Positions 17,102-64,000 of a DNA stretch of 64,000 nucleotides are shown here, in pieces; positions within the stretch are counted from its first letter, which is position 1, and every line of letters starts with the position of its first letter. This stretch comes from Emiliania huxleyi CCMP1516. Its lineage: Eukaryota. The DNA lies in contig NW_005202428.1 of NCBI RefSeq assembly GCF_000372725.1, forward strand, positions 1,349,331-1,413,330, given 5' to 3'. The notes under the pieces were generated by a model. The model searched no databases and was not told where the DNA came from. It saw only the letters and a list, made by a program, of their open reading frames with translations. A program made the position numbers and the translations under genes.

Positions 17102-20100
17102 ATGCCGGACGATCTCAAATCCGATCAGGAGCCACGAATACCAGAGCCGCGATTACACCGCGACTCGGAGACCAAATCGACGACGCCGCGGAGCTCGCGC
17201 AGCTCGTTTGGAGAGGAGGAGGGCGATGCGTGTGACGGCGACGCGGGCGCGGGGGAGGAGGGAATACAGGGCAGAGAGGGCGAAATCGCGAGCACGGGGG
17301 CGACGGAAGACGGGCACGGAGTGTCGAGTGGAGGATCACCGGACGGGAGCGGCACGGGCGCCGCCGGCGCGGCGGTGTCTGTGGGGACGGGCGCAGCCGT
17401 CTCGCAGAACCTGGTGGCGCTCTTTAGCCAGACGCTGTCGCTCGATGGCGAGGGCGAGCCGTGGGAGAACCGGGTGCGCGAGTCGGCGGACAACGACGGC
17501 GAGAGCCTCGTCACCTTTGGTCCGGCGACGGAGGAGGAGCTGGAAGACATTCTGGGGCGGTGAGAGGGCGTCCGTTCATTCATCTTACCTCCCCTCCTCC
17601 TCCTCCTCCTCCCCCTTCCCCTCTCCTGGCGCGAGGAGGAGAGCATCAGCAGCTCCCGGGAGGGGGCGGAGGGGGGAGAGAGTTGGGAGGGAGGGAGGGG
17701 GGAGAGGCGTGGGCAGCGACGTCTTGACGCGCCCGCCTCGCCCGCCCGCCGTCGCAGGCTGAAGCAGGTTGCTCAGACCGTCGGCTGCGATTGCGTCGTC
17801 GTGCACACGTCGGAGGCGGTCGACAGGCGAGCGAGAGGGAGGGAGGGAGGGAGGGAGGGAGGGAGGGAGGGAGGGAGGTGCCCCGCGCGGTTTTGCCTCT
17901 CCCGCCCTCGCCCGCGGCCTCGCCTCTCCCGCCCTCGCCCCGCCCGCGCGCCCTCTGGTGTTCCCTCCTCCCAGGAGCACGCAGGACAAGCCGGAGCCCT
18001 CTCCCTCACCCTCCTCCCTCACCCTTCTCCGTCACCATTCTCCCTGACCCCTCTCCCTCACCCTCCTCCCTCACCCTTCTCCCTCACCCTTCTCCCTGAC
18101 CCTTCTCGCACCCTCCCTTCTCAGGGGCGAGGTCAAGCTGACAAGGTACGCGATGGTCCGCAAGCTGCCGTCGCAAGGCGAGGCCCGCCGCACCTCGGCC
18201 GCACCTCGCGCCGCTCCCGCTCTCCTCGGCCGCACCTCGGCCACTCCTCCACCTCTTGCTTGCCGCGCCTCCGGCTCACTCGCTGGCGCCTCCTCGCGGC
18301 CCGCCCGCGCCGCAGGGCACCACCTCGACCTCCGCGTCGCCGTCGTCGGGAACGTCGACGCTGGCAAGTCGACGCTGGTCGGCGTGCTCACCGGCCCAGT
18401 CAACTTCCTGGACGACGGGCGCGGGCTGGCGCGCTCGCGCGTGCTGCGGCACAAGCACGAGGCGGAGGCGGGGACGGGCGGGACACCCGTCCACGGCACG
18501 CCCGAGGCACGTCCCATAGGCACAAGCACGAGGCGGAGACGGGGCGGACCTCCTCCATCGCAGAGGACCAGCACATGCGCCTCTCCGCACGGGGCGACTG
18601 CCTCGCCACGGTGAGACGGAGAGATGGGGAGAGATGGGGAGAGGTGGGGAGATGTGGGGAGATGTGGGGCGACTGCCTCGCCACGGCGAGACGCGCCCAG
18701 ATGCGGGAACTGACAGCCGCCTCCTCCAGCTCGCTCCGTGTCAGACACGGAGCCCCCACACTCACGACTCTGGCGCACTCGCGCTGCAGGAGAGGCACGC
18801 CAAGCCGTCCGACAGCAGCGCGGCGCAGACGGCGAAGGTGGTGTCCTTCATCGACCTTGCGGGGCACGAGCGCCACGTCCGCACCGCCGTCTACGAGCCT
18901 TCCGGGAACCTTCTAGGAACCGTCCCCTAGGCACGAGCGCTACCTCCGCACCACCGTCTACGGCCTGACCGCCCACGAGCCGGACTATGTCATGGTGGTC
19001 GTCGGCGCCAACCACGGCATCACCCGCATGACCAAGGAGCACGTCGGCATGGCGATCGCGCTCAACGTGCCGCTCTTTGTCGTCGTCACCAAGGTGGGAC
19101 TCTGCCCCCCGAGCCATGGACGCGTCCGCCCAGCCTCGGTGGACCAAGCCCCGGTGGACGGGCGGCAGGTGGACCTCTGCCCCGAGCCCGTCATGAAGGA
19201 GACGATGAAGCAGCTCGCGCGCATGCTCAAGCTGCCCGGCGCGAAGAAGCAGCCGTACGTGATCCGCTCCGAGGACGAGCTCATGATCGCGGTTCGCTCG
19301 TTTGGCCGCTCCGCCGTCGCGCCCATCTTCACCATCTCGTCGGTCGACGGCGCCGACGCCCCCCTCCTACCGAGCTGCGCCTGTGGACCGCGTCTCTTCA
19401 CGCCCCCTGGCCGAAAGAGTAGGCACAAACGTCCCCCTGCTGCGCCAGTTCTTCAACCTGATGCCCTCGCGCCGCGCGTGGGCGGCGCAGAGCCAGCAGC
19501 CGCCCGAGTTCCTCATCGACCAGTTCTTCAACGTGCCCGGCGTCGGCCTGGTCGTGGCCGGCACGCTGCTCTCCGGCGTCGTCTCGCTCAATCACGTCCT
19601 CGCGATGGGCCCGAACAACGTGGGCAAGTTCAACACCGTGACGGTCAAGAGCATACACCACATGCGGACGGCGGTGCCCGCCCTGTTGCCCGGCCAGACG
19701 GGCGCCTTCGTCGTGCGCTCGCGCACCAAGGAGCACGTCAAGAACTTCGGCGTCCGCAAGGGGATGGTGCTGCTCGAAGGGACAGAGGTGACCACTGCTG
19801 CTAGGCCACCCGGCTACGTCTACTCTCATTCTCACGATGATGAGGAGCATTGGCTCGCCCCCTCGCCCTTTCCCCTCTCCCCGCACCCGGCGACTGCCTT
19901 GGCGCAGGAGCCTCGCGCGACGCGCACCTTCGCGTGCGACGTCCTCGTCCTCCACTCGCAGACCACCATGCGCGTCAACTACCAGCCGATCCTCTATGCG
20001 CGAAACGTGCGCCAGTGCGTCCGGATCGCGGCGAAGACGAGGAGGCCCTCCGGACACCGCGTCCTGGACATGTCCTGGACGTGTGCTCGACATGCCCCAT

Positions 20101-20255
20101 AGGCGATGGACAAGGAGGTCCTCCGCACGGGCGTGCGCGCGCGCGTCACGTTCGAGTTCATGTACCGCCCCGAGTTTTTGCAGCAGGGCACAAAGGTGCT
20201 CTTCACCGAGGGCAAGACCAAGGCCATCGGCACGATACGCGAGCTGCTCGGCTGA
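17102..20255 (+). CDS. GTPBP1: GTP-binding protein 1/2-like translational GTPase, multi-exon
   Basis: [20 protein letters not shown] (G1), [41 protein letters not shown] (G3), VVTKVDLCP (G4), [13 protein letters not shown] and [21 protein letters not shown]. Confidence 0.92.
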
Positions 20256-21157
20256 ACGCGGGAGGGGGGGGCGGGGCGGGCGGCACGGTGGACGGGGATG
20301 GGGGCGACGGGAGCGGTGTGCTCTCCGCGCCGGTTCGCTGTCCGTGGTCGGACAGCTGTCGAGAAGGGCCGTGGCCCTCTCCCGTCGCCGGCCAGCGCCC
20401 TCGCCCTTGCATCCCTCCGCCCCTCGCCCTATCCGCGTAGCGGGCTAGATGACGGGTGCAGGGAGAGCAGCTCCTCTGCTGCTCACACGCTCTGCACAGT
20501 TGGCACAGCCTACTGTGCGGCTGCCACAGCTGTCACAGCGATGGGCTCGCCCTCACTGGCCCTCAGTCACTTGTGCTGCGGCTTGTGTGAGCGACACTGC
20601 TCGGCGACTCGTGCCGGCACACTGAGAGAGACTGTGAGACCATGGGTGTGAGGTAAAACCACGCTACCAGCGCTTGGTCACATCAGCCCTGAGGTCATAT
20701 CCTTCTCCTCTGTTGATGGTAACACTTGTCTACTCGCTGGAGCCGAGCAGGAGGGCCCAGCGCACAACCCCTGGTCAACTCACCCTCCACACCCCGTACT
20801 GTAAAGCCGTACGCCCTGCGGCATTCTCGGCTCTATCTTGCCCTAGAGTCTGTAGAGGCCGTATGTACGGATTTTCCCCGACACCCCCCACGCGTGTGCT
20901 TGACCGCGTACACAGCACACCAGTCCTGTGGCGACGCGGCCTGATCCCTAGGTGGATGCGGGGGCTTGAGACGATGGCCGGATGCCCTCGCTTTCATGAG
21001 CGCAGTGGTGCACTCGAGAGCTTCCGCTCGAGGGCGACGGTGTAGGCCTCCACGTCCTCCATTCGCTGCTGTTCCGCCACGTCACGGATGGCAGAGGGAT
21101 GCGGCAGATTAGAGGGTTCGCGTTGGGTAGGAATAGGCGGGGGTGGGGGCGATGACC

Positions 21158-22873: not shown

Positions 22874-24169
22874 TGATTGGCATCGGGTTGCGGGCAAGAG
22901 AGCCCTAGCCCTGGGGGTGCGCGTTCGCAGGGCAAGGGCCGTAAAGTAAACACGAGTCTCCGACCTCCGAGGGTTGGACGGTTTTCATTTCGGGAACTGT
23001 GAGATTTTTGAAACTTTTTTCTTCTTCTTCATCTTGTAAAATTCTTTTTAACGTTGACGCCCAACCCCCGACGGGCGCCTGCCTCCGGGCCATGGTCAAC
23101 GGAGTCCCATCCGATGGCCTACCCTTACCGGATGGCATCGAGCTGGAAGCGGGCAGTGACGTCTATTTCAATGTGGGACCCCCGGCGGATGGATCCGCGC
23201 CTCGATTCAGTCTGCTGGCGCAACGCGCCTCTCGGTGTCGTACTGCTTCCGTGGCAACAGGGTGGTAGCGTCCATCACCGCCACACAGTGCAACGACCCA
23301 TCAGTCATCCTGTTCCGTCCCCCGGCGGAGGAGGACAAGGGCAAGAAGAAGAAGCGGCTGCGGGAGGTGGGAACCGCGTCTGGATACGCGGCCAGTGAGT
23401 ACACGACCGCTGCCCCCTCAGGGGAGGCGTGGCGCTCACCACTGCAGGCCGGCCGGTCCTGGCACAGGGTGAGCGGAAGCCCGCTCGAGCGTCACAGGCT
23501 CAGCAACTTTTGCAAGAAGGCGCTGTCGCACCTCGAGACCTTGTACGGCAGCCTGGACTCTGCCTGGCATGCGGGGTGGCGCTGGGAGGCGGCGCCGCGG
23601 GGGATGACAGTCGGGCACAAGCACCTCTTCTGGGCACCAAAGGCGAGCCACCCCTCCAAGCCTAACGGGGTAGTGCCTAGCACCTCTTCTGGGCACCAAA
23701 GGCGAGCCACCCCTCCAAGCCTAACGGGGTAGTGCCTTTACGGCATGGGTACCCTAGAAGAGGGTCCCCAGCACTTTGCGTTTCCGGAAATTTCCAGGGA
23801 AACTAGAGGGTGTTTGGTGCTCCATTCTGGCAACTCTGGAGTTTCCCTGAGTCTGAGAGCTGGTCTGGGGCAAAATCTGAGGCGAAACCGAGGAACTCGG
23901 CAAAATACCCAGCCGCTCGCAGGGTAATTTCCAGGTAGACTCATTTTGCCGCCTGGGCTGATTTTGGATTTCCACGGAGTTTCCTCGGGAAACCAGAGAG
24001 GAAACGAGAGGGTGCTGTGGTGGAGAAACACGGAAAGGAAACGAGACGGGGTGCGCGAGGAAACATGGATACATTGATTGGCGTCGGGTTACGGGCTAGA
24101 GAGCCATAGCCCCGGGGGTGCGCGTTCGCAGGGAAAGGGCCTTAAAGTAAACACGGGTCTCCGAGGGTT
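22874..24169 (+). repeat. ~95-bp direct repeats (22874-22975, 24075-24169) around 1.1 kb with decayed coding sequence and an internal ~59-bp tandem duplication
   Basis: tgattggc.tcgggtt.cgggc.agagagcc.tagccc.gggggtgcgcgttcgcaggg.aagggcc.taaagtaaacacg.gtctccga appears twice; gcacctcttctgggcaccaaaggcgagccacccctccaagcctaacggggtagtgcct is repeated at ~23621 and ~23680. Confidence 0.9.
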
Positions 24170-29171: not shown

Positions 29172-29808
29172 TCGTCTCAGTCTCACGTGAATTCGTCCCT
29201 GTCTCACTCTCAGCGTCTCAGCGGTGTCTCAATAGATCCATCACTCCGTCTCACTTCCTCTCACTTCCGTCTCTGACTGCCTTCTCGTCCGTCTCAGCGC
29301 GGCAGGCCCGAGAGTGCCGAGATTGCCCAAGATAACCCGTGCAACCTCATGAGGTGGTCGGGGCAGTGTGGCAGGCGCCCGAGAGTACCCGAGATCGCCC
29401 TCGTGATGTGGTCTGATGTGCAGTGGTCACCTCGGGGCAGTGGCAGGAGCCCAAGCACGCAACCTCGGGCAATCTCGGGTATTCTCGGGCGCCTCCCACT
29501 GCCCCGACCACATCACGACGTTGCACGGGTACTCTCGGGCAATCTGGGCACTCTCGGGCACTCTCGGGCGCTCTCGGGCGCTCTCGGGCACTCTCGGGAG
29601 CCTGTCGCGCTTGAGACGGACGAGAAGGCAGGAAGAGACTGCAGTGAGACGGAAGTGAGACGGAGTGATGGATCTATTGAGACACCGCTGAGACGGCAGG
29701 AAGGAGAGACGGAAGTGAGACGGAAGTGAGACGGAGTGATGGATCTATTGAGCCACCGCTGAGACGCTGAGAGTGAGACAGGGACGAATTCACGTGAGAC
29801 TGAGACGA
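29172..29808. mobile_element. ~640 bp foldback (near-palindromic) element
   Basis: tcgtctcagtctcacgtgaattcgtccctgtctcactctcagcgtctcagcggtg is reverse-complemented at the right end; inner arms (gtggtcggggcagtg / cactgccccgaccac) also pair. A 12-bp direct repeat cagagcctggcg lies just outside, at 29145 and 29823. Confidence 0.85.
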
Positions 29809-31944: not shown

Positions 31945-32537
31945 TGCCTCTGACCGCCACCGTTCCCAGGCTGCCTAATGGGATGGAAAGGAAGGCTCGG
32001 CGAGCGTATAGAGGCGTGCTCGACCTCGTCGTGGCAACCTGTACGGCAGCGCTGGTAGGCGCGATGAGCGTCGTGCCACCTGACCCGAGACGGGTCGCAG
32101 GCGTCGTACCGAGCGCGTCGAGACCGTGTCCTGATGTGATCTGTACGGGTGAGTCACGTCGGCGTCAAAGGAGCGACGTGCGACCTGTCAGAGCTCTATC
32201 TCCGATCGCAGCTGCCTCTGCGCGTCCTGGGGATGTACCTTTGTCGCGCGCCGGAGACGACTCGACGCCGCTGAGATCGGAGATCAAGCTCTGACAGGTC
32301 GCACGTCGCTCCTTTGACGCCGACGTGACTCACCCGTACAGATCACATCAGGACACGGTCTCGACGCGCTCGGTACGACGCCTGCGTCCCGTCTCGGGTC
32401 AGGTGGCACGACGCTCATCGCGCCTACCAGCGCTGCCGTACAGGTTGCCACGACGAGGTCGAGCACGCCTCTATACGCTCGCCGAGCCTTCCTTTCCATC
32501 CAATTAGGCAGCCTGGGAACGGTGGCGGTCAGAGGCA
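31945..32537. repeat. Long inverted repeat: 251-bp arms, 91-bp spacer; left arm runs into the gap
   Basis: 31945-32195 is the reverse complement of 32287-32537; two mismatches seen. Confidence 0.95.
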
Positions 32538-32905
32538 AAGCCTGCGAGGGGTGGTGGAACCACATGTCACGGCTGCTGCCGGCTCGACCCCACGCGGATA
32601 GCCTCCGAAGGCTGACTTTGCGGCACCATCATCGGACGATGTCGACGAGTTGGATCGCTCTCGCGGTAGCCAGATGACCTCCCATACTTGATATCACATG
32701 ACACATCGGCCAGAGGGCCGCAGGAAGCGCGGGGGAGGGCGCTGGGAGCAACACGGAGCTCCGTTGGAGACGTTTTCAAGAGATTACATAGCGTGTCAGA
32801 GTGAAATGGGTAATGGCACTAGCCGCCGGGATCGTGTCAGTGTCCTGACTAACCTGGGCACAGACTTTCGGCTTGGACAGTAGTATCTAGTTAAAGCGCA
32901 GCTTT

Positions 32906-35141
32906 TCACTTCAGTCCAGGTCCAACACAGGCGGTGCCACCGCTGCTGCGGGAGCCGCCGCTGGGGCCGCCGTCACGGTCGCGCCGCCGCCGCCGCCGCT
33001 GCCGCCGCCGCCGCCGCCTGAAGACCCGAGCGCGAGGGCGCCGTCGCTGCCGACGCTGGCCGCCGCCGCGTCGAGGATGGCCGGCCAGTAGGCCTCCCCG
33101 AGGCTGTTGAGCCTGCTGAGGAGCGCCGCGGCGTTCTTCTGCAGCGACGCGGCGAGCGCTTGCTCGATGCGCGTCTTGACCGTCTCGGAGAAGAGCGAGG
33201 CGGCCTTGGTCGCGAGCCAGCCCATCGCGGCGGACCCGCTGCTGCGCACCTGCGGGGGCCGCGGCGGCGCCAGCTCGAGGCCGGAAGCTCTGGTCCACCG
33301 GGGGTGGATTGACTGGCTGGACCGCTTGGCTGACGAGGCACCGTAAGGTCGAGGTGGTGCAGCTTGATCAGGGGCGGGTCCATGCCGAGCTGCGGAGGAG
33401 CCGGCCCCGCGCCGCCAGCCGCCTCCTCCGCCGCCCCTCTCGGAGGCGCCGCCGCGTCCGCCACGCCGCCGGCCGCCTTTGCGAGCCGCGCCGCCGCCCA
33501 CGCCCGTGCGGCGGACGTCTGGTCGAGTCGAAAGGAGAGGCGAATCTCAGACGCGCCCGAGTGGCACTCGAGCTCGCCTGAGCAGCGGCTACAGCCGTGA
33601 AGAGACGCTGTTCACAGCTCCGAGCCGCCCGAGTGGCGCTCGAGCTCGCCTTCGCCGCCCACCCTCGCCCACCGCTGGTGCTGCACCTTCCAGCGGACGC
33701 CTCGTAGCCGGAAGGAGACGCCCCTCGCCTAACAAAGAATTGTGTTTGCGAAAAAGAAACACGCCGCGCCGCCGGAAGGCGACGCCCCTCGCCTCGAGGA
33801 CGAGGGCGGGACCGTCCGCGACGGCGAGAGTGAGGCGGTCGGGCGGGATGTGCAGGCTGCTCAGGTCGATGTCGCTCAGCTCGTACGCAAGCGACTCGCC
33901 TACTCACGGCCAGAGGCGTGGGGGGGCGCTGATCACGGCAGCAGCAGCTCGCGCGCCAGCGACTCGCCCTCGGCGCAGCGTGAGACGGGCGGCACCTCGC
34001 ACCGTCAAGCGAGGGGTGTGAAGGGAGGGGCGTGAGGAGAGGCGCACCTCCGCTAATCCATTACTACTGCTGAGAGAGTTGATTCCTCGACTCCTCAAGC
34101 ACCTCCACCGTCGGCAGGTACAGAGGTGCTACTCTAGTACTACTGGGGGAGTTGAAAGCACCTCCACCGTCGGCAGGTACGAGGAGAGGTACGAGAGCAG
34201 CGCGTCGCGGGCGCGGCTCAGCAGCTCGGCGCGCGCTTCCGGGTCGACGAGCGCGCGCTCCCCGTCCGAACAGATCGCCTGCACTGCGCCGCTGTCGAGC
34301 CGCTGCAGGGCGGCGACCTAGGCGAAGGTCCCGAGAAGGGTCGGCGAGGGCTCTGCCCGCCGCTGCCGAGCCGCTGCAAGGCGACCCCGTGCGCCAGCGC
34401 CTGCTGCCCGAGCTTCTGCTCCTGCACCCACTGGACGGCTCCGCCCAGCCGCCCGCCGTCGCCCAGCCCGCCGTCGCCCGGCTGCCCGCCGTCGCCGCCG
34501 CCCTGACTGCTTCCGGCGCAGACGTCGCACTTGACGCTCCCGCCGACGACGCGGAGCTGCACCTGCACCGCCGGTGGCGAGGGCTGCAGGCTACCGGTGG
34601 CGAGCGCGAGGACTCTGCGCAGAGCGTCCGGCTCGACGCCGCTTGTGGCGACGAACGATGCGCCCGCACTGACCGCGCTGCCGACGATGCCGCTGTCCAC
34701 CGCGCCACGCAGGCGGCTGACTGCGCCGTCGATGACCGCCGCGCTCTCCGCGGCCGCCGTGACGGACTGCTCCTCGACGTACCCGAGCACAGAGATGGCA
34801 GACTCGGAAGCCAGCACGTGGCCAAGCACCCGGTTGCCCTCCCGTCTGAGCGCCTCCAGCTCCTCCGACGATGCCACCGCGTCCAGCGCCGCTCGCACAG
34901 ACTCGCCGCCGCCAGGTGCCATAACAGCAGCGACAGCAGCGTTGGGGAATGAATCGACGCTGATCCCGGCCGACTCAAGTTGCTGCCGAGCGGCCGCGGC
35001 AACGTCGTCGAGGGAGGGAGCGCCCTGCTCGGCCAGCACCTCTTTCACCGTCTGGTCCACGCGGCCCACTGCCGAGCTTAACTTTGCCGCCGCGACCGAC
35101 GCCGTGGCCGCCGCTCTCTCGGCGAGGGCGTCGGCGTCCAT
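32906..35141 (-). CDS. Multi-exon hypothetical protein; C-terminal half weakly resembles a BPI/TULIP-like lipid-binding fold
   Basis: Start MDADALAERAAATAS; helical Ala-rich exons, then LSSYLPTVE, YELSDIDLSSLHIPPDRLTL and WLATKAASLFSETVKTRIEQAL. The fold call is inference. Confidence 0.5.
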
Positions 35142-42077: not shown

Positions 42078-43673
42078 TCAGGTGGTGAACCGAGGGCCCC
42101 CGAGGCGCTCTGGCAAGCTCGCCGGGTAGGGGGAAAGCTCCGACCTGCCTGGCGAGTAGGGCCTGTCCGAGTAGCGTCCGGACAGCGGCGACGGCTCGGG
42201 CGGCAAGTACCTACCAGGTTCGGGAAGGGGTCCCAGAGCCCTCCATGTGAAGGAGCGGCGACGGTGGCGGGGTCAAGGCGCACTCGAAGTCGCGCGGCGT
42301 CAGGCCGAGGAGGGCATCCTCGGCGGGGGAGTACCTGCGTGTGAGGACCTCTCGCTCCCCGCCGCCCCGAGGTGTGTGTGTGTGTGGTGGTGTGTGTGTG
42401 TGTTGGGGGGAGGGGGGGGGGGGGGGGGGGGGGGGGCGTACTCGGACGTCGGCGGCGAGCCGAGCCGGTAGTGCGACGCTGCGGCGAGGACAGCGGCGGC
42501 GTCGAGCGAGTCTGTGCCGAGCAGCATGGTGCGGTACCTGTCGGACCAGGTCCTGGAGGAGTGGGGAGGAGGCTCGTGCGAGTGTGCGCCAGGCAGCGAG
42601 TGCGGTGCATGTCTCGTATCCGAGGAAGCGACCAGCCGTACACAAAGGCGTTGAGTGCGCCCTGCAGCGGCAGGCGGGGAGAGCGTGGAGGTGAGGCAGT
42701 GGCCTCTGCGCACACAATGTGGTGGGGCGAGGGCCAGGCAGCCCTCGCATCTCCACGCCCAGGCAGGCGAGGCAGGAGGCGGCACGGCATTGACAGTGCA
42801 AGGCCCAGTGGCGGAGCAGGCCTGCAGCGGCATGCACATCGCCTCGAGCGCCGCGAGCCCGTACGAGGGGGCTCGCCTCGCACCGCAGAGCAGCACCTGC
42901 AGCCGCACCAGCAGGGAGGGGAGCCAGACGACGGCGAAGACGAGCAGGTAGAGCGACGTCGAGCGAGAGACGCGGGCCTCGGTGGCAGAGCGGCAGACGA
43001 GCGCATACGTCGCCGTGTTGAAGGCGAACGCACCAACCAGCGGGAGGTAAAAGGCGAGGAGGTACTGCGGCGTAAAGTCGGGCCCGACGGCGCAGTACGA
43101 GCCGGCGTCGCCGACGTACCCCAGGGCGTACGTGCCGCCGGCGAGCAGCGCGGGCAACGGCCAGCAGAGCGCGTGGAAAGTGAGCTCGGCGTCGCGCAGC
43201 GAGATGCGCGGCGCCGTGGCGGCGGGCGGGGCCACGTCGCGGTAGAGCGTGCGCGCGAAGCAAGAGGTCCAAAAGATGGACGCGAGGTTGAAGTAGAGCA
43301 GCCCGACGGCCTGCACCTCGCAGAGTGGCGAGGGACTGTCGCCGGGCGCGCCGTCGGCGGCCGGGTAGGCGGTGTCGACGAGCACCCCGCACATGTTGAA
43401 GATGGAGGCAAAGCCGTCAGCGACGGCGAGGTAGCCGATCAGCCGCATCGCGAAGAAGCGCTTGGAGAGCTCGCGGAAGCGGTACATCGAAACCAGCACG
43501 AGGCTGGTGCCCGCGAGCGATAGCGTCGCGCTGACGAAGACGATGAGGCGGAGGTGCCACTCCTCCTCGAGCGAGAGCGGCGTCTTGCGGCCGCCCTCGC
43601 CGGCGAGGCCCATCAGCGGCTCTCCCTCGCCGGAGAGGCCCACCAGCAGCTGTCCCTCGCCGGCGAGACTCAT
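42078..43673 (-). CDS. cAMP-receptor/GCR1-like 7TM GPCR, multi-exon
   Basis: SATLSLAGTSLVL, RLIGYLAVAD, LCEVQA...FNLASIFWTSCFA, HALCWPLP, YLLVFAVVWLPS and PLQGALNAFVYG. Confidence 0.85.
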
Positions 43674-43849: not shown

Positions 43850-45097
43850 ATGTCCACCCCGCGGCGCCGCTCGCGCCGCCTCGCCGCCGCCGCCGCCGCC
43901 GCCGCGCACTGCCCCCTCACCGACCTGCCCCTTGAGCTCCTCGCGCGCGTCATCTCTCGCTGCGACCCCGCCGACATCGCTCGTTTCGGGGCCGTCTCGC
44001 TGCTCTTCCACGCCTCGCTCGCTCAGGAGGGCATCCGCTTGTTGGCGCAAGAGCGCGGCTTCGAGCTGCCGGCGCAGCCAGAGGGCGAGAGCTGCGCCGT
44101 GCGGTGGCTGTGCTATTCGGCGCTGCTGTGCGAGTCCAACCCGCCGGCGAGGCTGGCCACAGGCGAACGGCACAGCGTCTTCATCGACGGCGAGGGGCGG
44201 CTCTCGTCGTGCGGCAATGCGCCGTCGTACCTTGGAGGACTGCTCGGGCACGGCAATGGCGTGATGCAGCTCAACACGCCGACCCGCCTCCTCTCGATGC
44301 TGGGCGGTGAGCGCGCCGTGAGCGTGTCGGCCGGAGCATTCCACAGCCTCGCCATCACCGCCGATGGCGCCGTCTGGAGCTGGGGCGGTGGAATGTACGG
44401 CAAGCTGGGCCGCGGTGACCAGCAGCGCCAGCTGCTGCCCAAGAAGGTCGAGGCCTTTGACCAGTGTGTCGTTGCTCTGTTGGCTGGAGATATGCACAGC
44501 CTCGCCCTCACCGCCGACGGCGCCCTCTGGAGCTGGGGCGATGGATGCCATGGCAAGTTGGGCCACGGCGACGAGCAGAACCAGCTGCTGCCGAAGAAGG
44601 TCGACGCATTTGCTGGGCAGCGCATCGTCGCAGTATCGGCTGGAGGCGAGCACAGCTTCACCCTCACCGCCGACGGCGCCGTCTGGAGCTGGGGCCGTGG
44701 AAACTTTGGCCGGTTGGGCCACGGCGACACGCAGAGCCAGCTGCTGCCGAAGAAGATCGGGGCCTTTGCTGATCAGCGCGTCGTTGCCGTGTCGGGTGGG
44801 TGGGGGCACAGCTTCGCCCTCACCGCCGACGGCGCCGTCTGGAGCTGGGGCTGGGGAGCCTTTGGCCAGCTGGGCCACGGCGACCAGCAGGCCCAGCTGC
44901 TGCCGAACAAGATCGAGGCCTTTGCTGGCCAGCGCGTCGTCGCTGTGTCGGCTGGAGAGCAGCACAGCCTCGCCCGCACCGCCGACGGCGCCGTCTTCGC
45001 CTGGGGTGAGGGCAAGCGCGGCCGCCTAGGCCACGGAGAGCACCTGTCGAACCAACTGCTGCCCAAGAAGATCGAGACGTGGGCGCCGGGGCAGTGA
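43850..45097 (+). CDS. F-box-like + RCC1-repeat protein, intronless
   Basis: LTDLPLELLARVISRCDPADIARF, followed by about six repeats of VSAG..HSLALTADGAVWSWG.G..G.LGHGD...QLLPKK. Confidence 0.9.
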   Translation: MSTPRRRSRRLAAAAAAAAHCPLTDLPLELLARVISRCDPADIARFGAVSLLFHASLAQEGIRLLAQERGFELPAQPEGESCAVRWLCYSALLCESNPPARLATGERHSVFIDGEGRLSSCGNAPSYLGGLLGHGNGVMQLNTPTRLLSMLGGERAVSVSAGAFHSLAITADGAVWSWGGGMYGKLGRGDQQRQLLPKKVEAFDQCVVALLAGDMHSLALTADGALWSWGDGCHGKLGHGDEQNQLLPKKVDAFAGQRIVAVSAGGEHSFTLTADGAVWSWGRGNFGRLGHGDTQSQLLPKKIGAFADQRVVAVSGGWGHSFALTADGAVWSWGWGAFGQLGHGDQQAQLLPNKIEAFAGQRVVAVSAGEQHSLARTADGAVFAWGEGKRGRLGHGEHLSNQLLPKKIETWAPGQ

Positions 45098-45443: not shown

Positions 45444-47993
45444 ATGGTCTTTTACTTCACGTGCTCGGACCCTCGCTATGTCATCTACATGGGCCGCGAC
45501 AAGCACGAGAACGAGCACCTCATCGCGTACGGCTGGCCAGAAGACCTGTGGTTCCACGTCGACAGCCACTCGAGCGCGCACGTCTACCTGCGGCTGCCCA
45601 AGGGCGAGACGATTGACGACGTTCCCGACGAGATCGTGCAGGAGTGCAGTCAGCTGTGCAAGGCCAACTCGATCGAGGGCTCCAAGCTCTCGCACGTGCG
45701 GATGATCTACACGCCGTGGGCGAACCTCAAAAAGACGGAGGGGATGGCCGACGGACAGGTTGGCTACCACTCTCGCGGCGCGGTGCGGCACACGATGGTG
45801 GAGCACCGGGTCAACGCGGTGGTCAACCGGCTGAACAAGACCAAGGTCGAGATGCACAACGACCCGAGCGAGCTCGCGCGCCTCAGGCGCGGGCGCCACT
45901 TCGGCTGCTCTCCCCTTGACCTCGGCTGCTCCTCTCGGCTGCCGCACCTCGGCTTCTCCCTCTCGGCGGCTGCTCCTCGGCTGCCGCTTCTCGGCGCGAA
46001 GCGCGACGCAACTGCCGCTAGGCGCGAGCGCGACGCGGCGGAGGCGGCTGAGGCGCGCCGAACGCGCGAGGAGTCCAAGGCGGCGGTGGCGGCAGAGGAG
46101 AAGGCGGCGAGGCGCGAGCGGGCGGAGGAGGAGGCGGCCGCGGCGCTCGCGCGCGCCACCGGAACGCTGTACAGCGCCGAGTCATTGGGCGCCGCCCGCG
46201 CCGCCGCGTTGCACGCCGAACCTAGATGCGCGGACACAGCTGGTTGCAACCACTGCTCGGGTGCACGCCCTCGTCTGGACTCCGCCATGCTGACTCCGCC
46301 ATGCTCGCACGCGGCGACTCTCGTGCGCTCACGATGCAGACCCCCCTGGGAAGAGCAGTGAGACTGCAAGGTAGGCACGCCGACGCGGAGCGCCAGATCG
46401 CAAAGGCGAAGAAGAAGAAGGGCGAGCGGAGGGGAGGCGGCGTCGCCGACGCGAGCTTGGTGGGTGACTCTGGATGCGGAAGAGCGGCGGTCCAGCTAGC
46501 GCTCGCGACGACACGCACGCGGCTGCATCGAAGTGCACTGCAGCCGTGTCCCCGGATCTGGTAGACCTCGTGTTGCCGCGCCGCTAAGAAGCTGCACGAG
46601 CCCCTCCCCACCCCCTCACCTCCCTGCGGTGGGTCCAAGCTCCCCGTGTCTGGAGCCCAGGTGGACGACCTGTTCGGAGACCTCTGCCTCGCCTCCCCGG
46701 GCGGCGGTGGCGGCGGAGGAGAAGGGCTCGACGCGGGAGAGGAGCCAGGGCGAGGACGCGTCCGGGACCCTTCCGGGACCCTTCCTCTAGGCGACTGGCT
46801 CGACGACGACGACGAGGAGGACCCCTTTTGGTCGAGCGGCCCCTCTGGCGGTTCCTCCTCCGCCGCCTCCGCCGCCGCCTCGGCCGGGGAAGGGTTTGGA
46901 GGGCCGGCGGCGGTGGCACAGACGTGGCGCGACGCGTCGCTCGGCGTGCTGGGCGAGGAGGTTGCACGCGTGGAGGCTGGCCGCGCGTCCTCTGCCGTCG
47001 AGAGGAAGGGGCGCGGAGCCTCCCCTGAGCCTTCTCTGCGCCCCTCCCTGCAGGCGGGCCGCAAGTCTGCCGGCGAAATGGAGAGGCTGACGGAGGCGGC
47101 GCACGAGCGAAAGGCGGCGGCAAAGAGCCGCGCGGCGGAGGCGGCGGCGAAGAAGGCGGAGGCGGAGGCCAAGGCGGCGGAGGCGGTGGAGGCGAAGCGG
47201 CGGGAGCTGCACGGCCAGCGGGAGCAGGCGGCGGAGGCGGCGGCGAGCGGCGCACGGGCGGCGCAGGCGCGACTCGAGACCGGGCGGTGGACACGCCCAC
47301 AACACGCCCACGACACGTACTCGACACGCCCACGCCACGCCCACGACACGCCCACGACACGCCCACGACACGTCCGCGACACGTCCGCGTGGCGCGTCGG
47401 ACAGGCGCGACTCGACGCGGACCGCGCGGCGGGGTTGGCAGGCGCGGCGCTGGAGGAGAACGAGGTTGGGTGGATGTGCGGAGGCGGCGCAGCGGCGGGG
47501 AGGGCGGCCTCACGCGGGTTCGGTCGCTCCTTAGGCGGCTCAGGAGGAGGCGCGGGCGGCGCAAGCGGCGTGGCGTTGCCGGGCGAACCCCCTGCTGAGC
47601 AAGCTCTCCCCCCCCCCCCCCCTCCCCCGCCACTTCTCCCCGCCGCAGGAGCTGATGGTTCTCGAGGCGGTGCTCGGCGAGGAGGGTTTCGAGCGCGAGG
47701 AGGAGGCGGCCCCGCCCGCTTTCCGGCTCACCGTCGCGGGCGAGCGGGCGCGCGGCGAGCCGACCGCAGTGCAGCTCCGCGTCACTTTCGTCGTCGAGTA
47801 CCCGTCGCACTTGCCGCCCCGCCTCGAGATTGTCGACGGCGTCGCGGCCGAGGACGCGCCGCTAGTGCGCGACTCGCTGCTCGCACTCTTCTACGCGCAG
47901 CGCGAGGAGAGCGCGGCGGCGGGCGAGCCAGCGGAGGGCGTGGTGCACCGCTGGACGGAGTGGGTGAAGGAGGAGTGGATGCCGTCGAGCTGA
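45444..47993 (+). CDS. CCDC25: CCDC25 (NFACT-R/DUF814) protein extended by coiled-coil and C-terminal RWD-like domain, multi-exon
   Basis: MVFYF..IYMGRDKHENEHLI.YGWPEDLWFHVDSHSSAHVYLR..LCKANSIEG..YTPWANLKKT. Introns at 45887-46021, 46211-46374, 46460-46660 and 47267-47404 (plus others) link to ELMVLEAV..LRVTFVVEYPSHLPP..GVVHRWTEWVKE. Confidence 0.8.
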
Positions 47994-57215: not shown

Positions 57216-60200
57216 ATGCTGCTCCAGTCGGCGGCTCGCCTCGAGGAGGCCGTCGGCGCGGGCGACACTCTGACCGTGGACTCGACGGGCCGGCTCGCGG
57301 CGCTCGGCGTCCGCCGCGAGATATGGATTGTCGATCTCGAGTGGCCGTGGGAGCCGTGCCGCGTGCTGCCGACGCCCGAGCTGGCACCGCCGGTGGCGCT
57401 GGAGTGGCAGCCGCAGCGAGGCGCGGGATCCGGGCGCACCATCGCGTGCGCGTCCGCGGACGGAGCCCTCCGCCTGTACGACGGCGCCGCTGAGCCAGGC
57501 GCGCTGTCGCTGCTCGTCACGCTCTGCGGCCGGGCGGCAGGCGGCGGGTGGCAGGGCCCTCGCGACTGCGCGGTGCAGCACGTGGCGTGGAGACCGGCCG
57601 CGCCGCACACGCTTGCCGCCGCCACTGCCGGCGGCGGCCTCGCATTCTTCGACTGCCGCGCGGGAAGCGCGTGGCACCTGGCGATGCGTGAGGGCGGCGG
57701 AGGCGGAGGCGGGCCGTCGGCATCAGAGGGTGGCGGCGCCGGCCGCGTCTCGTGGTGCGGCGGGCCGGCTGACGCTGGCGGTGCCGCGCCAAGCGGCGGC
57801 TGGCTAGCACCGGCTGAGCTGACGGACAGACGGCGGCGAAACTGATTAGGCGGCGGCGCGAGGGAGCACCTGCTCGCTGCTCTGTGCGGCGACAGGGTGC
57901 ACATCGTCGACGTGAGGCGGCTCGCGGACCGCGCCTCCTCCGCCACGCTCGGCTCCTTCGGCGCGTGCTCGTCGCATCGATCCCTCTCTCCGTACTTCTC
58001 TACCCTCTCCCCTGAGCCTCGTCTCCGGAGCTGTGGACGAGTACCCGGGTAGGCTAAACCCTCGAGGAGCGGCGGGCGGCCGTGAGGAGCGAGCACGTAC
58101 TCAGCACACTGGCGTGGTAAACAGGCTCGACCTCGAGACGCGGCGGACGATACTCGTGGATCGAACCTCCCAGTCCGCGCTCCTCTCCCTGCAGGCGTCG
58201 CGTGCGGGCGGGGCGTCTCGGTTGCCGTCTCGGTGGACTGGGCGGGCGGTCCCTGCGGCGGTCCCTGCGGCGGTCCTTGCGCGGGCGGCGAGGGGCTCGG
58301 GCCTCGCCGCGGTGAGGCGGAGTCTGGCGCCGACCCTCCTCCCCGCTTGCCTCTGCTCCTTACGAGCAGCCGCTCGGTTGGAGGAGGCGGAGGAGGAGGC
58401 GGCGGAGGAGGAGGCGGAGGAGGAGGCGGAGGAGGGGGCGTGGTGCAGCTGTGGGACGTGCGACTGTGTGGCGGCACCGGCGAGGGGGGCGAGGGCGGCG
58501 GAGGCGGCTCGCAGCAGGCGCCCTTCGACGCGCGTTGTGTCGCCACCGCCGCAAGCCGCGCGCCGCCGACTTGTGCGCTCTGGATGCCGGCGGCGGCTCG
58601 CAGCGGAAGAGGCATCGACACGGCCTCTCCTCCTGCGGCGGCGGCGGCGGCACTAGCAGCAGACGCTGCGGCGCGGCTGCACGCACGCCACGCTATCTCG
58701 CAGGGAGGTGGCCACTCACCGCTTCGCCGCTGGTTTGCATTCGCTAGGTTGCGCCGCGCGGGCCGCACGTCATGCCCGGGACATGTCCGGGACACGTCCT
58801 CGCCGTGACCGGCGCCGCTGCAGTGGGCTGGCTGGCCCTTAGCTGGTGTTGCGCCACACACCCAAATGGCTGTAGGCGCCCCCGCTGCGGAGGGCGACGA
58901 CGGCGCGTCCCCGGGCGCGGGCATCCGTTTGTGGGGCGTCGCCAGCGGCAGAGGTGGCGGCGGGCAGAGCGGCGGGCAGAGCTTGCGGCTTGTGCGGGGT
59001 GCCGCGGGGGTGAGAGACGCGTCGGTCTGCTCGGTCGCATGGTGCGGGTGCGGCGTGGGCGAAGAGGCGAGATTGCCCGAGGACGGATGAGCCGAGATGA
59101 CTCGAGATCATCAGAGGTGAGCCGAGATTACTCGAGATCATCCAGGTGACCCGAGATGACCAGAGGTCATCAGAGGTGACCCGAGATGACCCGAGATGAC
59201 CCGAGGTAGGCGCGCCTCGTCTCGCTGGGGAGCGACCGTCTCCTCGGCGTGTGGCGGGTCGTGCGGGCGGCAGCCGACCAGGCGGAGCCCGACGCAGACA
59301 CCCGCAGCGAGCCGTCCTGCCGAGCGGCGGGGCCGGAGGGGGAGGGGCAGGAGGGGGAGGGGCAGGAGGGGGAGGGAGGGCGGCACGGCTCGCGAGGCGA
59401 GCCGGCCTCCGCCGGTCACGACATGTCCAGGACACGGGCATGACATGTCCGAGACATGTCCGTAGGAGATGAGGCCTCCTCCAGCGCCGCCCTGGCCGCC
59501 GGCCTGGAGGGCGAAAAGGTGGCTGGCGAAAAGGTGGCTGGCGCGGCGGCGGAGTGGGGGGCACTGGAGAGGTGTGTGCGGGTCGCGCAGGCGGCGTGGG
59601 CGAGAGAGCAGCCGCCCTTCCCGCCGCTCCTCTCGCTGGCGCCGCCCGCGCAGTTCTCGGCCTCCTCTCCTCGCGAGGCCGCCGCAGCTTGTCGAGGAGT
59701 GCCGGCCGAGTCTCTGGTGCCGGCCGAGTCTCTAGTGCCGGCCGAGTCTCTCGCTGAGGTGCGCATCAGCTGCACCTTGCCGGAGGTGGTCGATGCCGAA
59801 GGCGTTGCAGCAGAGGGCGACGCAGCAGAGGGCGGTACAGCTGGGAGAGGAGGCGGCGGGGGAGGAGGCGGCGAGGGCGGAGGCGGCGCGCTGCCGCTGC
59901 TGCTGCGCTGGCCTCACGAGCTACCGCCCTCGCTCACGGCGGCGCCCGAGGCGGCCCTCAGCAAGGCGGGCCTTCGGGCGGAGGGGCGCGTGCCTGCCGG
60001 CGGGCCGCTCGCTGCGGCGGTCCTCTCGGAGGCGGAGGCGGCGCTCGCCTCCGCGTGGAGGAGCGCCGGCGCGCGCGACCTGCCCTCGCTGCTGCGCGAG
60101 CTCGCAAGAGCCGCCGCTGCAGCGGAGGCAGCCGCGCTGGCCGCGCCAGAGGCGGGCAGCTCGCGCGGCGGCGCGGCGGGCGCGGCGGACGCCGCAGCGG

Positions 60201-63200
60201 CGGCGGACGCGGCGGCGGACGCGGCGGCGGCGGCCCTGCTGCCCCTCCTCGGCGCGATCCTCAGCGCGGCGCAGCGTGCGGTTGCGTTCTGTGGCATCCG
60301 CACGAGCAGTCTGCGGAACCTTCCTGGAGCTTTCCCATAGGCGCAGCGTGCGGTGGCATTGCACCGGATGCGCGACTGGCGCCGCTTGCGCGACGAGCAG
60401 GCGCAGGCCACCCCCCGCGAGGAGCGCGGGAGCGGCGCCGGCTTGGTCGCCACCGGCCCCTCGGTCGCTCTCCCGACGTCGGCGTCGGCGGCGGGCGCAT
60501 TTGAGCGACTGCCGCCGCCGCGCACTTCGGGCGCCTCGTTCTGCCCTTCGGGGCTGCTCCTCGCGTTTGCAAACGTGCCGTCACCGTACGCTGGCCTCGC
60601 CCGAGGGCGGAGTCGCCGCACGGCGTGTCCATGACGATCAAGGTACGCGGTCGCAGGTACGCCGGCCTCGCAGAGGCGGAGGTGCCGCGCTCGTACGAGG
60701 ACTTTCTCGGCCGGGCGCCGGTAGTGCGGAGCGGACCCGTCTCGAAGCGCCCCTGAGCCGTCTCTTCAGCCGTCCGGCATAGGCTTGGTGCAGGGCATGC
60801 ACATCGCCCCCATCGTGCGTGCGCAGCTGGCGACGGCTACTCCTTTCTTCGAGTCGGGCGGAGGGTCGACCCTCCTCCGCCCTGCCGGGATCGCCGCGAT
60901 CGGCGGCGGCGGCGGCGGCATCTACTCGCCGTCCGGGGAGGGCGTCGGCTTGGACGAGCGCGACGCCGATGCCGACGCTGACTTCGACGAGGAGGAGCGA
61001 GAGTTTCGCGCGAGCGTGCGGGCGATGGGCGGCGGCAGAGCCGACAGCAGGGGCGAGATTGGCGCGGCGGGCGAGGAGGAGGGGGCCGAAGTCGGCGCGG
61101 GGGCGGCGCGGGGTTGCGGCCGATCGGACGGCTCCCTGCACGGCCCGCTCCGCGCCCACCCGTCCGCCGGCGCGCCTTCCCCGCCACGTGACGTCTCCCC
61201 CGACGCTGCCACCCGCAGGCAGCAGCCGGCTGGCCAGCCTCGTGCCTTACCGGCTCGAGGAGGGCGCTCTCGGAGGGCAGCGGCCGCCGCTCCCCTTCTC
61301 GCCGCCGGCGGGCGGTAGGCACGCACCGGGCGAGTTCACGGCCTTCTCCTGATTGAATTTGTGGACCGCCTTCTTCGATTTCTTCCTCCCGCAGGCGCGC
61401 GCGAGGCCGCCGGCGCGCGGCAGGCGCGGGAGGGGGCCGGCCCGCCAAGTCCCGCCTCCGCCTCCTCCGCTCCCTCGGCGCGATGCCGTCGTCGCGCGTG
61501 ACGACTCACGACGTGGCGGCGGCCATCGAGGCGGCGCCGCAGCTCGCCGCGCGCTATGCGCTCGGCAGCCTCGCGCGCCGCTTCCCGGCGCGCAGCGTGC
61601 GGAGCGGGCCGCTGCTCGCCGCCGCGCGCGCCGAGGCGGCGGCCTTGTGCCGGCTCAACGCCGAGGTTGCGTTGGCGCACGGAGGGCCGAGCGGCGGCGG
61701 CGGAGGCGAGTTGTGGAGGCAGTGGATGCTCGTGTCGACGGCGCTGTCGGCCCTCGCCCCCGCGACCCAGGGCGGGGGTGGGGCAGGCGGAGGCACCGTA
61801 GGCAGCCCGCAGGTCTGGGGCGCGAGCAGCCGGTGCCAGCGGAGCGAGCGGGGCGAGTGCCTCGTCGTCAGCGCGAGCCGGCTGCCGTACGCCGACGTAG
61901 ATGCTGAGCACACATCCCTGCACCCACGCGATGCATGGCGCGAGATGGCCCGAGATGGCCCGAGATGGCCCGAGATGCCCCGAGATTACCCGAGATGACC
62001 CGAGATGGCACGAGATGACCCAAGATGCCCAGCACGAAACCGCACTCCCGCCCCTGCCGTGTCCCACGAGTTCAACGTAATGACTCTGTCCTCAATCCCA
62101 GCTCCAAGAATCCCATCCACTAGGTACGCCACTGCCGACACGCGCGACTATGCGATCGCGGTGCGGCGGCACTCCCGAGACACTTGCTCCCTCGCCACCC
62201 TCCCCCGCGACTCGCCCCACCTGCCCATGGCGCGTCGCACGTCCATGACTCGCACGTCCATGACACGCCCGCTGACGCCCCCCCGCCCGCTGACCCGCCC
62301 GCGACCCGCCCGCAGCTGCCCCTCCTTTCCGCGATCCTGCACGACCGGGTGCGGGCCGCCGACGTGCAGAGCACCGCCACTCTCCTCGCCATCTGCGCCA
62401 CCGCCGGCGTGCCACTCATTGCCGAGGCGGCGGCCGCACGGGCAAGCGACATGTCCCTGCCGCTGCTGGGCGGCGAGGCGGAGGCGAGAGCCTCCCGCTG
62501 CGTGGGGGGGATGCGTGCCGGGCCTCACACCTGTCCGACTCGCGCACTGTTGGACGAGCTAGGCGGGCCTGTGGTGCGTGGGCGTGTACGCAGATCTGCT
62601 GCTTCGCTGGCAGCTCTTCCACACGCGTGCGCAGCTGCTCAAGCTCGTCGCTCCCCTGCGGCGGCGCGCTCCCCACGCCGCCGGCAGCGGCAGCGCTCCC
62701 CTCCGCCGCGGTGGCGCGCGGTGAAGCCTCCCCTGAGCCTTCCCGCAGCCTCCTCTGCAGGCGGCGGCCGGGCCTCCAACGACCGCATCTCGCGGACCAT
62801 CGAGGAGCGGGCCGCGTCGGCGCCGGTGCAGCTGCCAAGATCCCTCTCGAAGCCCGCTCGGAGCCTTTCCATAGGAGGAGCCGCCCGGCGGCCCGGCGCA
62901 AGGCGGCGACGACGAGGCGAACCGGCCGGGTGGGCCGTTCGACCAGGCCGCCATCTGGGAGTGCCGGAGAGTGCCCGGCTGTTTTGCCCGAGAGGTGACA
63001 GAGGGCAGTTTGACCAGGCGGCCCCGCTCCACCTCGACTGCATCCCGGCTGCGCGGTCGCCGCCACACCGCCGCGTGCCCCCGCCCCTGAGCGGCGGGCA
63101 GCGGAGCGGCTCCTCGTCGCTCAGCCAGAGCTACCGGCGCTCGAGCTCGCACGGACACGTCTCGCTCCTCCTCGGGGCGTCGCCCGCCGCTTCGGGCGGC

Positions 63201-64000
63201 GGGTCGGTCCCGCCCACGCTGCTCGGCGCGGCGGGCGGGGCGACCTCGTGCGGGCTCCTGCAGCAGTGCCGAGCAGCGGGCGCCGCCTCTCCCGACCCGC
63301 CGACCCGCCGCCACGCTTCGCTCGTGCCGAGCGCCGCCGCCGCGCCGCCAGTCACCGCGTGCGCGGTCGCCATAGCACAGATGCGGCATCCCTGTAGCCC
63401 AACTGGCGCTCGCGACGACACGTACACAGCTGGGCCCACCTGTGTTGCAGCCGCCATTCACTGCATTCGTAGCCCTCGTGTTCACGCGACGCGCCGAATA
63501 CACTGCACGCGACTCACGCCCTCAGTTAGCTCCGCGTGTCGCATGCCACAGGTCGCCATACCGCGCGACGCGGAGGGCGGGCCAGGCGCGAGCAGCGCCT
63601 CGGGCTCCTCTTCCTCCGGGGGCCTTCGTGAGCCTTCTAGCAGCCGTCCTGTAGGCGCGAGCAGCGCTTCGGGCTCTCTGCTCGGGGGCGGGGGCGGAGG
63701 TGTGCCGAGCCGCACGTCTTGCATCGCACGTCCGCGACAGTCCATGACACCCACGGCGCGTCCGCGACACGTCCCACGACACCGTCCGCGACACGTCCGA
63801 CACGTCCCGCCAGGCATGCCGAGCAGCACGTCGTGTGGCCGGCTCGGCTCTCTGCTCGGCTTCTGCTCCTCGGGCGCGTCTGCGAGCGCGGCGGCGGCCG
63901 GGCCGCAGCTCGCGCGGCGGGCGAGCCCAAAGGCGGGCTCCGGCGCGCTGCAGGCTTGCCCCTCCAGCAGCGGAGAGGCGCTGCACGCGGCTGCGCAGCC
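57216..64000 (+). CDS. WDR59: WDR59/Sea3-like GATOR2 subunit, multi-exon, probably continuing past the window end
   Basis: LTVDSTGRLAALGVRREIWIVDLEWP (WDR59-like N-terminus), WD40-like VQLWDVR, PPPRTSGASFCPSGLLLAF, LCRLNAEVA..QWML, ADVQSTATLLAI and YADLLLRWQLFHTRAQLLKL. Confidence 0.78.
59091..59205. repeat. Intronic 10-bp tandem repeat (CCGAGATGAC-type)
   Basis: Also at ~61940-62026. Other intronic 10-11-mers: GACACGCCCAC (~47290-47390), GACACGTCC (~63746-63810) and GGGGAGAGAT (~18620-18668). Confidence 0.9.

What the first reader, a model, noticed from the sequence alone, without database searches (positions are those of the whole stretch)
18449..20102. 'Echo' introns: the intron 5' end copies the start of the next exon (GTPBP gene)
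Seen in five introns of similar length (67-75 nt). 18449-18519: gcacaagcacgaggcggag, 19 nt identical to the next exon start. 18864-18930: 31 nt with 3 mismatches. 19094-19168: gtgggactctgccccc vs gtggacctctgcccc. 19350-19422: weaker match. 20031-20102: gcgaagacgaggaggccctccg vs gcgatggacaaggaggtcctccg. Four of the five use GC donors supplied by the duplicated exon sequence itself. Inference: introns arise by insertion of an AG-ending filler with a long target duplication, or by tandem duplication/staggered-break repair, which would explain the abundance of GC-AG introns. The duplications are longer than typical DNA-transposon TSDs.
Basis: partly seen in the sequence, partly recalled or inferred. 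Interest (0 to 1): 0.82.

Follow-up and report, generated by a model that had tools for sequence, protein, structure and literature searches.

The report
Introns born by long exon duplications
In the bloom-forming alga Emiliania huxleyi, half the introns of this gene start with a roughly 20-35-base copy of the next exon followed by a short repeat filler, a layout that likely records a way of making new introns and may help explain why this alga starts so many introns with GC.

Summary
All five introns lie at the stated coordinates and are spliced. Four echoes beat every exon control, one is weak; the gene's other five introns show none. The host is Emiliania huxleyi. Each echo runs about 20-35 nt. 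The 3' half matches neither exon and is mostly degenerate 11-nt satellite that recurs elsewhere. Eight more candidates lie in the window, unverified. Four of the five positions are absent from all relatives seen; one (19094) is shared with three other lineages, which chance can partly explain. In a second haptophyte, two echo-type insertions are present in some records and absent in others with identical protein (protein-level evidence only). Best reading (0.65): insertion with a long target duplication supplies the donor and the filler the acceptor, likely at staggered breaks. Main rival: overwriting of old introns from spliced cDNA. Published tables list ~70-nt introner families for this species, mechanism unknown; I found no description of the long echo. 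The scan noted a similar 15-bp case in another haptophyte.

The parts
17102..20256 (+). Gene for a 620-aa translational GTPase (GTP_EFTU domain; GTPBP1/2-like by recalled motifs), 11 exons, 10 introns
18449..18519 (+). Echo intron, 71 nt, GC-AG, phase 2; first 19 nt identical to exon start at 18520; filler of the GACACGTCC-type 11-nt family; ends TAG
   Evidence: protein support only
18864..18930 (+). Echo intron, 67 nt, GC-AG, phase 2; 27 of first 30 nt match exon start at 18931; filler of the GGAACCTTCTA-type 11-nt family; ends TAG
19094..19168 (+). Echo intron, 75 nt, GT-AG, phase 0 at K347|V; decayed echo of about 20 nt; ends CAG; position shared with other lineages
19350..19422 (+). Weak echo intron, 73 nt, GC-AG, phase 1; filler of a third family shared with candidates 33900-33967 and 33578-33649; ends TAG
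20031..20102 (+). Echo intron, 72 nt, GC-AG, phase 0; echo of about 24 nt with one gap; filler of three 11-nt GGACATGTCC-type units; ends TAG
18591..18693 (+). Related duplication at lag 75 across the donor of non-echo intron 18611-18789: last 20 nt of the exon plus 8 nt of donor, a 10-nt-period satellite, then the second copy; RNA uses the first donor
   Evidence: loose ends
17560..17757 (+). Non-echo intron (198 nt, GTGAG donor, CAG end); internal control, as are 17827-18124, 18178-18315, 18611-18789 and 19788-19907
33578..33649 (-). Candidate echo intron, 72 nt, GC-AG, hairpin-forming filler; unverified by RNA or protein
33729..33792 (-). Candidate echo intron, 64 nt, GC-AG, AT-rich filler; unverified
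33900..33967 (-). Candidate echo intron, 68 nt, GC-AG; unverified
34318..34385 (-). Candidate echo intron, 68 nt, GT-AG; unverified
42538..42608 (-). Candidate decayed echo intron, 71 nt, GC-AG; unverified
60269..60340 (+). Candidate echo intron, 72 nt, GC-AG; unverified
60586..60656 (+). Candidate echo intron, 71 nt, GT-AG; unverified
63586..63654 (+). Candidate echo intron, 69 nt, GC-AG; unverified

Best explanation
These are real spliced introns whose first 20-35 bases copy the next exon, and they likely arose as insertions that duplicated a long stretch of the target exon and added a 35-45-base satellite-like filler between the copies. Shown: splicing, the echo, its limit at about position 30-35, the repeated 11-nt-unit fillers, and decay on the intron side. 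Inferred: a staggered break about 30 nt wide is filled in, which gives the duplication, and joined over a piece copied from the genome's abundant short repeats (telomere-type repeats in one other haptophyte). The insertion survives only if the duplication starts at a usable G|GC or G|GT and the filler ends in YAG at a spliceable length near 70 nt, so splicing removes filler plus one copy and restores the message exactly. Afterwards the intron copy would decay, the donor would drift toward GYGAG and the filler would expand. Within this reading I put host break repair at about two thirds and a retroelement-type machinery at one third.
For: Echo far above controls in 4 of 5 and absent in the 5 longer introns (Fisher p 0.008 for short length versus echo). 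Window scan: AG|GY anchors with score 30 or more number 12 at lag 55-85 (9 candidate introns, 3 tandem or satellite hits) against 1, 2 and 0 in three other lag bins. Identity falls to control level after about position 35, and the 3' half matches neither exon (permutation p 0.48 and 0.70, n=13). Fillers form families: 8 of 91 pairs exceed the 99th percentile of shuffles. Other DNA contigs pile on the 3' halves of 18864 (summed depth about 80-90 times the flanks) and 20031 (about 4-5 times), and several listed pieces stop at the acceptor (summed depth is not copy number). The intron copy departs from invariant residues while the exon keeps them. Four of five positions are continuous in every relative that covers them. 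Second haptophyte, 23 records, 16 with a full core that is 192/192 identical: an 82-85-nt echo-type insertion is present in 7, absent in 9 that retain another intron, absent in 3 fully spliced, unclear in 1, not covered in 3; a 72-nt one is present in 1, absent in 17, not covered in 5. One record lacking both comes from a 13,284-bp contig. L006 has a 15-nt repeat straddling an intron filled with telomere-type repeats. Lag-75 and lag-59 duplications that copy exon end plus donor cannot come from a spliced template.
Against: Position 19094 is also an intron site in L008 and the distant L061 at DNA level and probably in P0046; chance of at least one such coincidence is 0.45 against haptophyte sites but 0.09 against distant ones (several haptophyte positions are approximate). 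All 13 echoes start at the junction, with only 0-2 nt shared upstream, although 16% of 32-nt coding windows hold an internal AG|GY that should allow straddling repeats. Identity declines from the 5' end (0.92 to about 0.7), as repeated overwriting predicts, though the set was selected on 5' identity. The non-echo introns are also missing from the relatives, so absence does not single out echo introns. The same satellites occur in introns without a clear echo. No intron-less allele was seen in E. huxleyi. The polymorphism is protein-level, and partly spliced RNA contigs could mimic some of it (P0040 has one insertion but not the other intron). Eight of the 13 introns are unverified.
Confidence: 0.65

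Rival explanations
1. Existing introns had their 5' half overwritten from a spliced template (cDNA or mRNA): repair primed in the upstream exon copies about 30 nt across the exon junction and rejoins the old intron's 3' half. The echo would be a repair scar, not a birth mark.
For: Explains why the echo starts exactly at the junction in 13 of 13, the 5'-to-3' decline, the echo at the shared position 19094, and satellites common to echo and non-echo introns.
Against: The second haptophyte shows echo versus no intron, not echo versus plain intron. Exon-end-plus-donor duplications of the same size class and the straddling repeat of L006 need an unspliced template. Four of five positions have no intron in any relative seen.
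Confidence: 0.16
2. The fillers are the remains of true mobile elements: short non-autonomous introners or 5'-truncated tails of non-LTR retroelements, inserted by an element-encoded enzyme that makes long, variable target duplications.
For: Filler families recur in unrelated genes, in sense orientation, with matches ending at the acceptor; 9 of 13 end TAG against 0 of 5 non-echo introns (p 0.03); published tables list E. huxleyi families of about 70 nt, one noted with 10-bp terminal direct repeats and 'co-opt 5' carry 3''.
Against: At least three unrelated filler families plus unique fillers share one layout; fillers are degenerate tandem units of varying copy number; no consistent terminal inverted repeats by eye or folding; no autonomous partner could be sought because no genome is held. 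This overlaps the best explanation in outcome and differs in the agent.
Confidence: 0.1
3. Whole tandem duplication of a ~70-nt exon segment, with the 3' half of the first copy later remodelled into satellite and acceptor.
For: Known route of intron gain (PMC3443670, passages); in 20031 the downstream exon has AG at position 72, equal to the intron length.
Against: No residual similarity of the 3' half to either exon (p 0.48, 0.70); no AGGT-type site shared at both ends; the insertions that are still present/absent already have unrelated filler at protein level.
Confidence: 0.06
4. The similarity reflects splice consensus and high GC content only.
For: The weakest case, 19350, is reached by 5 of 180 exon controls.
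Against: Four of five exceed all exon-pool controls with the first two bases left out; lag-specific excess.
Confidence: 0.02

Closest known systems
Introners that carry the 3' site and co-opt the 5' site from the target duplication (Symbiodinium; Polarella classes 4/5 and 6/8/10; bioRxiv 10.1101/2020.10.14.339549, part 1 of 4 read; bioRxiv 10.1101/2022.06.06.494994, passages)
   Same: Donor from the duplicated target, acceptor from the inserted piece, exact restoration of the message, non-GT donors among gained introns.
   Different: Those duplications are fixed at 4 or 8 nt and the element is most of the intron; here the duplication is about 20-35 nt, variable, nearly half the intron, and the filler is degenerate satellite.
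E. huxleyi introner families in published supplements (PMC9860276 tables 5-6, rows seen; PMC12130899 dataset sd07, rows seen)
   Same: Same species.
   Different: Duplications are listed as '?' or short and the mechanism as unknown; the main texts do not mention huxleyi. I could not see family sequences, so whether these are the same introns is untested.
Daphnia neointrons from staggered double-strand-break repair (PMC4202315, passages)
   Same: [quoted passage not shown]
   Different: Repeats are 4-12 bp there and about 20-35 nt here; fillers here fall into satellite families with near-uniform total length (70 +/- 3 nt, n=13).
Tandem genomic duplication at AGGT (PMC3443670, passages)
   Same: Intron sequence derived from the gene's own exon.
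   Different: Only the 5' half is exon-derived, and the acceptor is not from a duplicated AGGT.
GC-AG majority in E. huxleyi (PMC4028052, passages)
   Same: 56-65% GC donors reported; same species.
   Different: That paper ascribes it to high GC content; the passages seen give no exon-duplication origin.

Membership tests
Spliceosomal GT/GC-AG intron | Removed from RNA, GY..AG ends | tested here: met
   4 of 5 by RNA joints in two studies; all 5 by protein match
Introner element | Families of introns similar along their length at unrelated sites | tested here: inconclusive
   Only 3' halves cluster, 8 of 91 pairs; 5' halves are locus-specific
Introner element | One splice site co-opted from the target duplication, the other carried | tested here: met
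   Donor lies at the start of the echo, acceptor at the end of the filler
Introner element (DNA-transposon type) | Short fixed-length target duplication (2-8 nt) | tested here: not met
   About 20-35 nt and variable
Introner element (DNA-transposon type) | Terminal inverted repeats | tested here: inconclusive
   Hairpins in some fillers (19094, 33578-33649), none consistent; no formal test
Introner element | Position absent from orthologues | tested here: inconclusive
   Met for 4 of 5, not for 19094; no sister-species DNA available
Introner element | Copies outside genes or an autonomous partner | not testable with these tools
   No genome held; filler pattern found 0 matches in viral and prokaryote collections
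Staggered-break neointron (Daphnia type) | Exon-terminal direct repeat at the opposite intron end | tested here: met
   Present but longer than the 4-12 bp reported
Staggered-break neointron (Daphnia type) | Presence/absence within a species | tested here: inconclusive
   Not seen in E. huxleyi; seen at protein level in a second haptophyte
Tandem genomic duplication intron | Whole intron resembles flanking exon sequence; duplicated AGGT gives both sites | tested here: not met
Non-LTR retroelement insertion | Variable long target duplication, 3' repeat tail, longer parent element (recalled) | not testable with these tools
   Variable long duplication and repeat filler fit; parent could not be sought

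The most novel reading that the evidence does not exclude
Haptophytes make introns on a genomic scale by a route that needs no transposase: a break is healed with a ~30-nt duplication and a few units of satellite or telomere-type repeat, and this route accounts for a large share of E. huxleyi's short introns and of its GC-donor majority, with insertions still segregating in at least one species.
Probability: 0.3. Interest if true: 0.85.

Novelty: new variant of a known kind. Interest (0 to 1): 0.66.

Why it matters
The source of new spliceosomal introns is a long-standing open question. Here half the introns of one conserved gene carry a readable footprint several times longer than those in the papers I saw, in a model alga with public genomes and RNA. 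The footprint gives each intron an internal clock (intron copy against exon copy) and a direct test of the link to GC donors. Because half of each intron is locus-specific, searches for introners by whole-intron similarity would likely undercount them. Echoes also blur junction placement by up to 11 nt, which matters for annotation.

Tried and rejected
No whole genome was held, so no genome-wide test. Only a 1.7-kb stretch was laid with reads, so intron 18449 and the eight outside candidates lack RNA joints; counts of the joined form in other runs were not given. A homologue search for the gene at 33-35 kb found nothing. The filler pattern found 0 matches in viral and prokaryote contigs, which is uninformative for an alga. 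Non-AG anchors at lag 55-85 were not a clean control, because the same pairs are seen from inside or from the other strand. Five of 16 scan hits were dropped: two from a perfect 59-nt tandem duplication at 23620-23737, one satellite at 29493-29571, and two reverse-strand matches inside coding sequence. Whole tandem duplication and a mirror echo of the upstream exon were tested and rejected. Several short in-frame 'introns' from my spliced aligner in distant loci (such as L034 at 570, L046 at 569, L060 at 528) were judged to be protein insertions and left out of the position list; 26 of the 80 loci were aligned there and 8. By-eye acceptors gave mostly no or weak echoes. Ten paper searches showed no title or abstract on long exon echoes in haptophyte introns; term look-ups in 10.1101/2024.05.26.595999 and PMC12480563 gave nothing relevant. 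The 2013 genome paper is not held, and files 13-14 of PMC12130899 were not searched; either may bear on novelty.

Full report
Observation. The five stretches are in the sequence as described. The gene runs 17102-20256 and has ten introns; its exon chain matches the 620-aa protein P0001 at 618 of 620 residues with one best GT/GC..AG placement per intron. P0001 comes from a 2,028-nt contig and clusters with E. huxleyi CCMP1516 EOD42186.1 and MMETSP transcripts. It carries a GTP_EFTU domain; the GTPBP1/2 label is recalled. RNA contigs from two studies skip 67, 75, 73, 120 and 72 nt at the five introns in 18700-20400, and both DNA-type runs keep them. Intron 18449 rests on protein evidence only.

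More than chance. Leaving out the first two bases, four echoes exceed all exon-pool controls (0/180, 0/180, 0/73, 0/180) and 19350 is marginal (5/180; 10/1500 GC-matched). The five longer introns (120-298 nt; GTGAG, GCGAG or GTGAC donors; CAG ends) show nothing. Across the window, AG|GY anchors give 12 strong hits at lag 55-85 against 1, 2 and 0 in other bins; 9 of the 12 look like introns. Eight of these lie outside the gene and are unverified.

Anatomy. Identity to the next exon is 0.92-0.68 over the first 35 positions against 0.56-0.65 for mismatched pairs, then falls to control (the set was selected on 5' identity). The 3' half matches neither exon (p 0.48, 0.70). It is mostly degenerate 11-nt tandem units in at least three families; 8 of 91 pairs exceed the 99th percentile of shuffles. 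In DNA runs, other contigs match the 3' halves of 18864 and 20031, and several listed pieces stop at the acceptor and continue into unrelated sequence. The intron copy, not the exon, departs from invariant residues. Upstream sharing is only 0-2 nt. Two further duplications of the same size class (lag 75 at 18591, lag 59 at 34097) copy an exon end plus its donor into the intron.

Relatives. Among loci aligned at DNA level (8, 26, of 80 fetched) and proteins read through from contigs, four echo positions were never interrupted. K347|V (19094) is interrupted in L008, in the distant AT-rich L061 and probably in P0046, without echo in the two seen as DNA. Only 7 AG|GY sites exist in the region, and the chance of at least one coincidence is 0.45 for haptophyte and 0.09 for distant sites, so this may be an old intron or a repeated gain. 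The non-echo introns are also missing from relatives, and no sister-species DNA was available. A same-species locus and two DNA-type runs keep every intron they cover. In a second haptophyte with identical core protein, an 82-85-nt insertion that repeats the first 5-7 codons of the next exon is present in 7 of 23 records and absent in 9 that retain another intron (3 fully spliced, 1 unclear, 3 not covered); a 72-nt insertion repeating 6 codons is present in 1 and absent in 17 (5 not covered). This is protein-level evidence and partly spliced RNA could mimic some of it, but one record lacking both comes from a 13,284-bp contig. L006 has a 15-nt repeat straddling an intron filled with head-to-head telomere-type repeats; interstitial telomeric tracts are reported as pervasive in Calcidiscus (PMC13518057, passages).

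Mechanism. The best reading (0.65) is insertion with a long target duplication: the first copy supplies the donor, the filler supplies the acceptor, and only insertions that splice out exactly survive. The agent is inferred. Several unrelated fillers on one layout favour repair of a staggered break that captures abundant repeats over a single mobile element. The main rival (0.16) is overwriting of old introns from a spliced template. It explains the exact start at the junction and the shared position, but not echo-versus-empty records or the exon-end-plus-donor duplications. The lack of straddling repeats in this species remains unexplained under the best reading.

GC donors. Echo donors are 10 of 13 GC and G|GY sites in this coding sequence are 66 of 89 GC, as expected if donors are taken from exon sequence without preference. 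E. huxleyi has 56-65% GC donors (PMC4028052, passages). Two of five non-echo introns also start GC, so the echo route can add to this majority but does not explain it alone.

Comparison with what is known. The splice logic is that of introners that co-opt the donor from a 4- or 8-nt duplication (10.1101/2020.10.14.339549, part 1 of 4; 10.1101/2022.06.06.494994, passages; review PMC11282704, passages). The footprint resembles Daphnia break-repair introns with 4-12-bp repeats (PMC4202315, passages). Supplement rows list E. huxleyi introner families of about 70 nt, one with 10-bp terminal direct repeats and unknown mechanism (PMC9860276; PMC12130899). It works like an introner, but fails the short fixed duplication test, so I do not file it as a DNA-transposon introner. 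That 10-11-bp repeats are enriched in this alga's introns is recalled from the 2013 genome paper, which was not held. Ten searches showed no account of the long echo; most subscription papers are outside this library. An earlier unchecked note of this scan describes a 66-nt intron with a 15-bp duplication in another haptophyte; it is a lead, not support.

Verdict. Real, spliced, non-random and probably widespread; a new variant of known intron-gain routes, with gain likely but not shown in this species and the agent open. Interest 0.66.

Noticed in passing
window 18591-18693 (+) and 34097-34180 (-): Duplications of 25-28 nt at lag 75 and 59 that copy an exon end plus donor into the intron, with a filler between; same size class as the echoes.
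   Followed up: partly
window 63700-63813, 47268-47404, 46976-47054, 59397-59465, 62807-62874 (+), 42211-42281 (-): Further probable introns with weak or gapped echoes, seen and partly by eye; two have expanded 11-nt fillers (114 and 137 nt), and two precede exons starting GA.
   Followed up: partly
L006 2262-2390: Intron in another haptophyte with a 15-nt straddling repeat and head-to-head telomere-type repeats as filler.
   Followed up: partly
L005 3730-3897 and L007 226-374: Shared intron with an 11-nt repeat straddling the junction (7 nt upstream, 4 nt downstream).
   Followed up: no
proteins P0039-P0042, P0045, P0063, P0070, P0071: Two echo-type insertions present in some and absent in other records of one haptophyte with identical core protein; fillers differ among records at the same site.
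   Followed up: partly
window 23620-23737: Perfect 59-nt tandem duplication without filler in a probable mobile-element region.
   Followed up: no
window 31945-32540: About 600 nt beside the assembly gap look like a long inverted repeat, by eye; may be an assembly artefact.
   Followed up: no
window 19788-19907: The in-frame 120-nt intron is both spliced and retained among RNA contigs of one run, in line with the frequent retention reported for this species.
   Followed up: no
window 44342-45076: 156-nt coding repeat, about four copies, RCC1-like by recalled motif.
   Followed up: no
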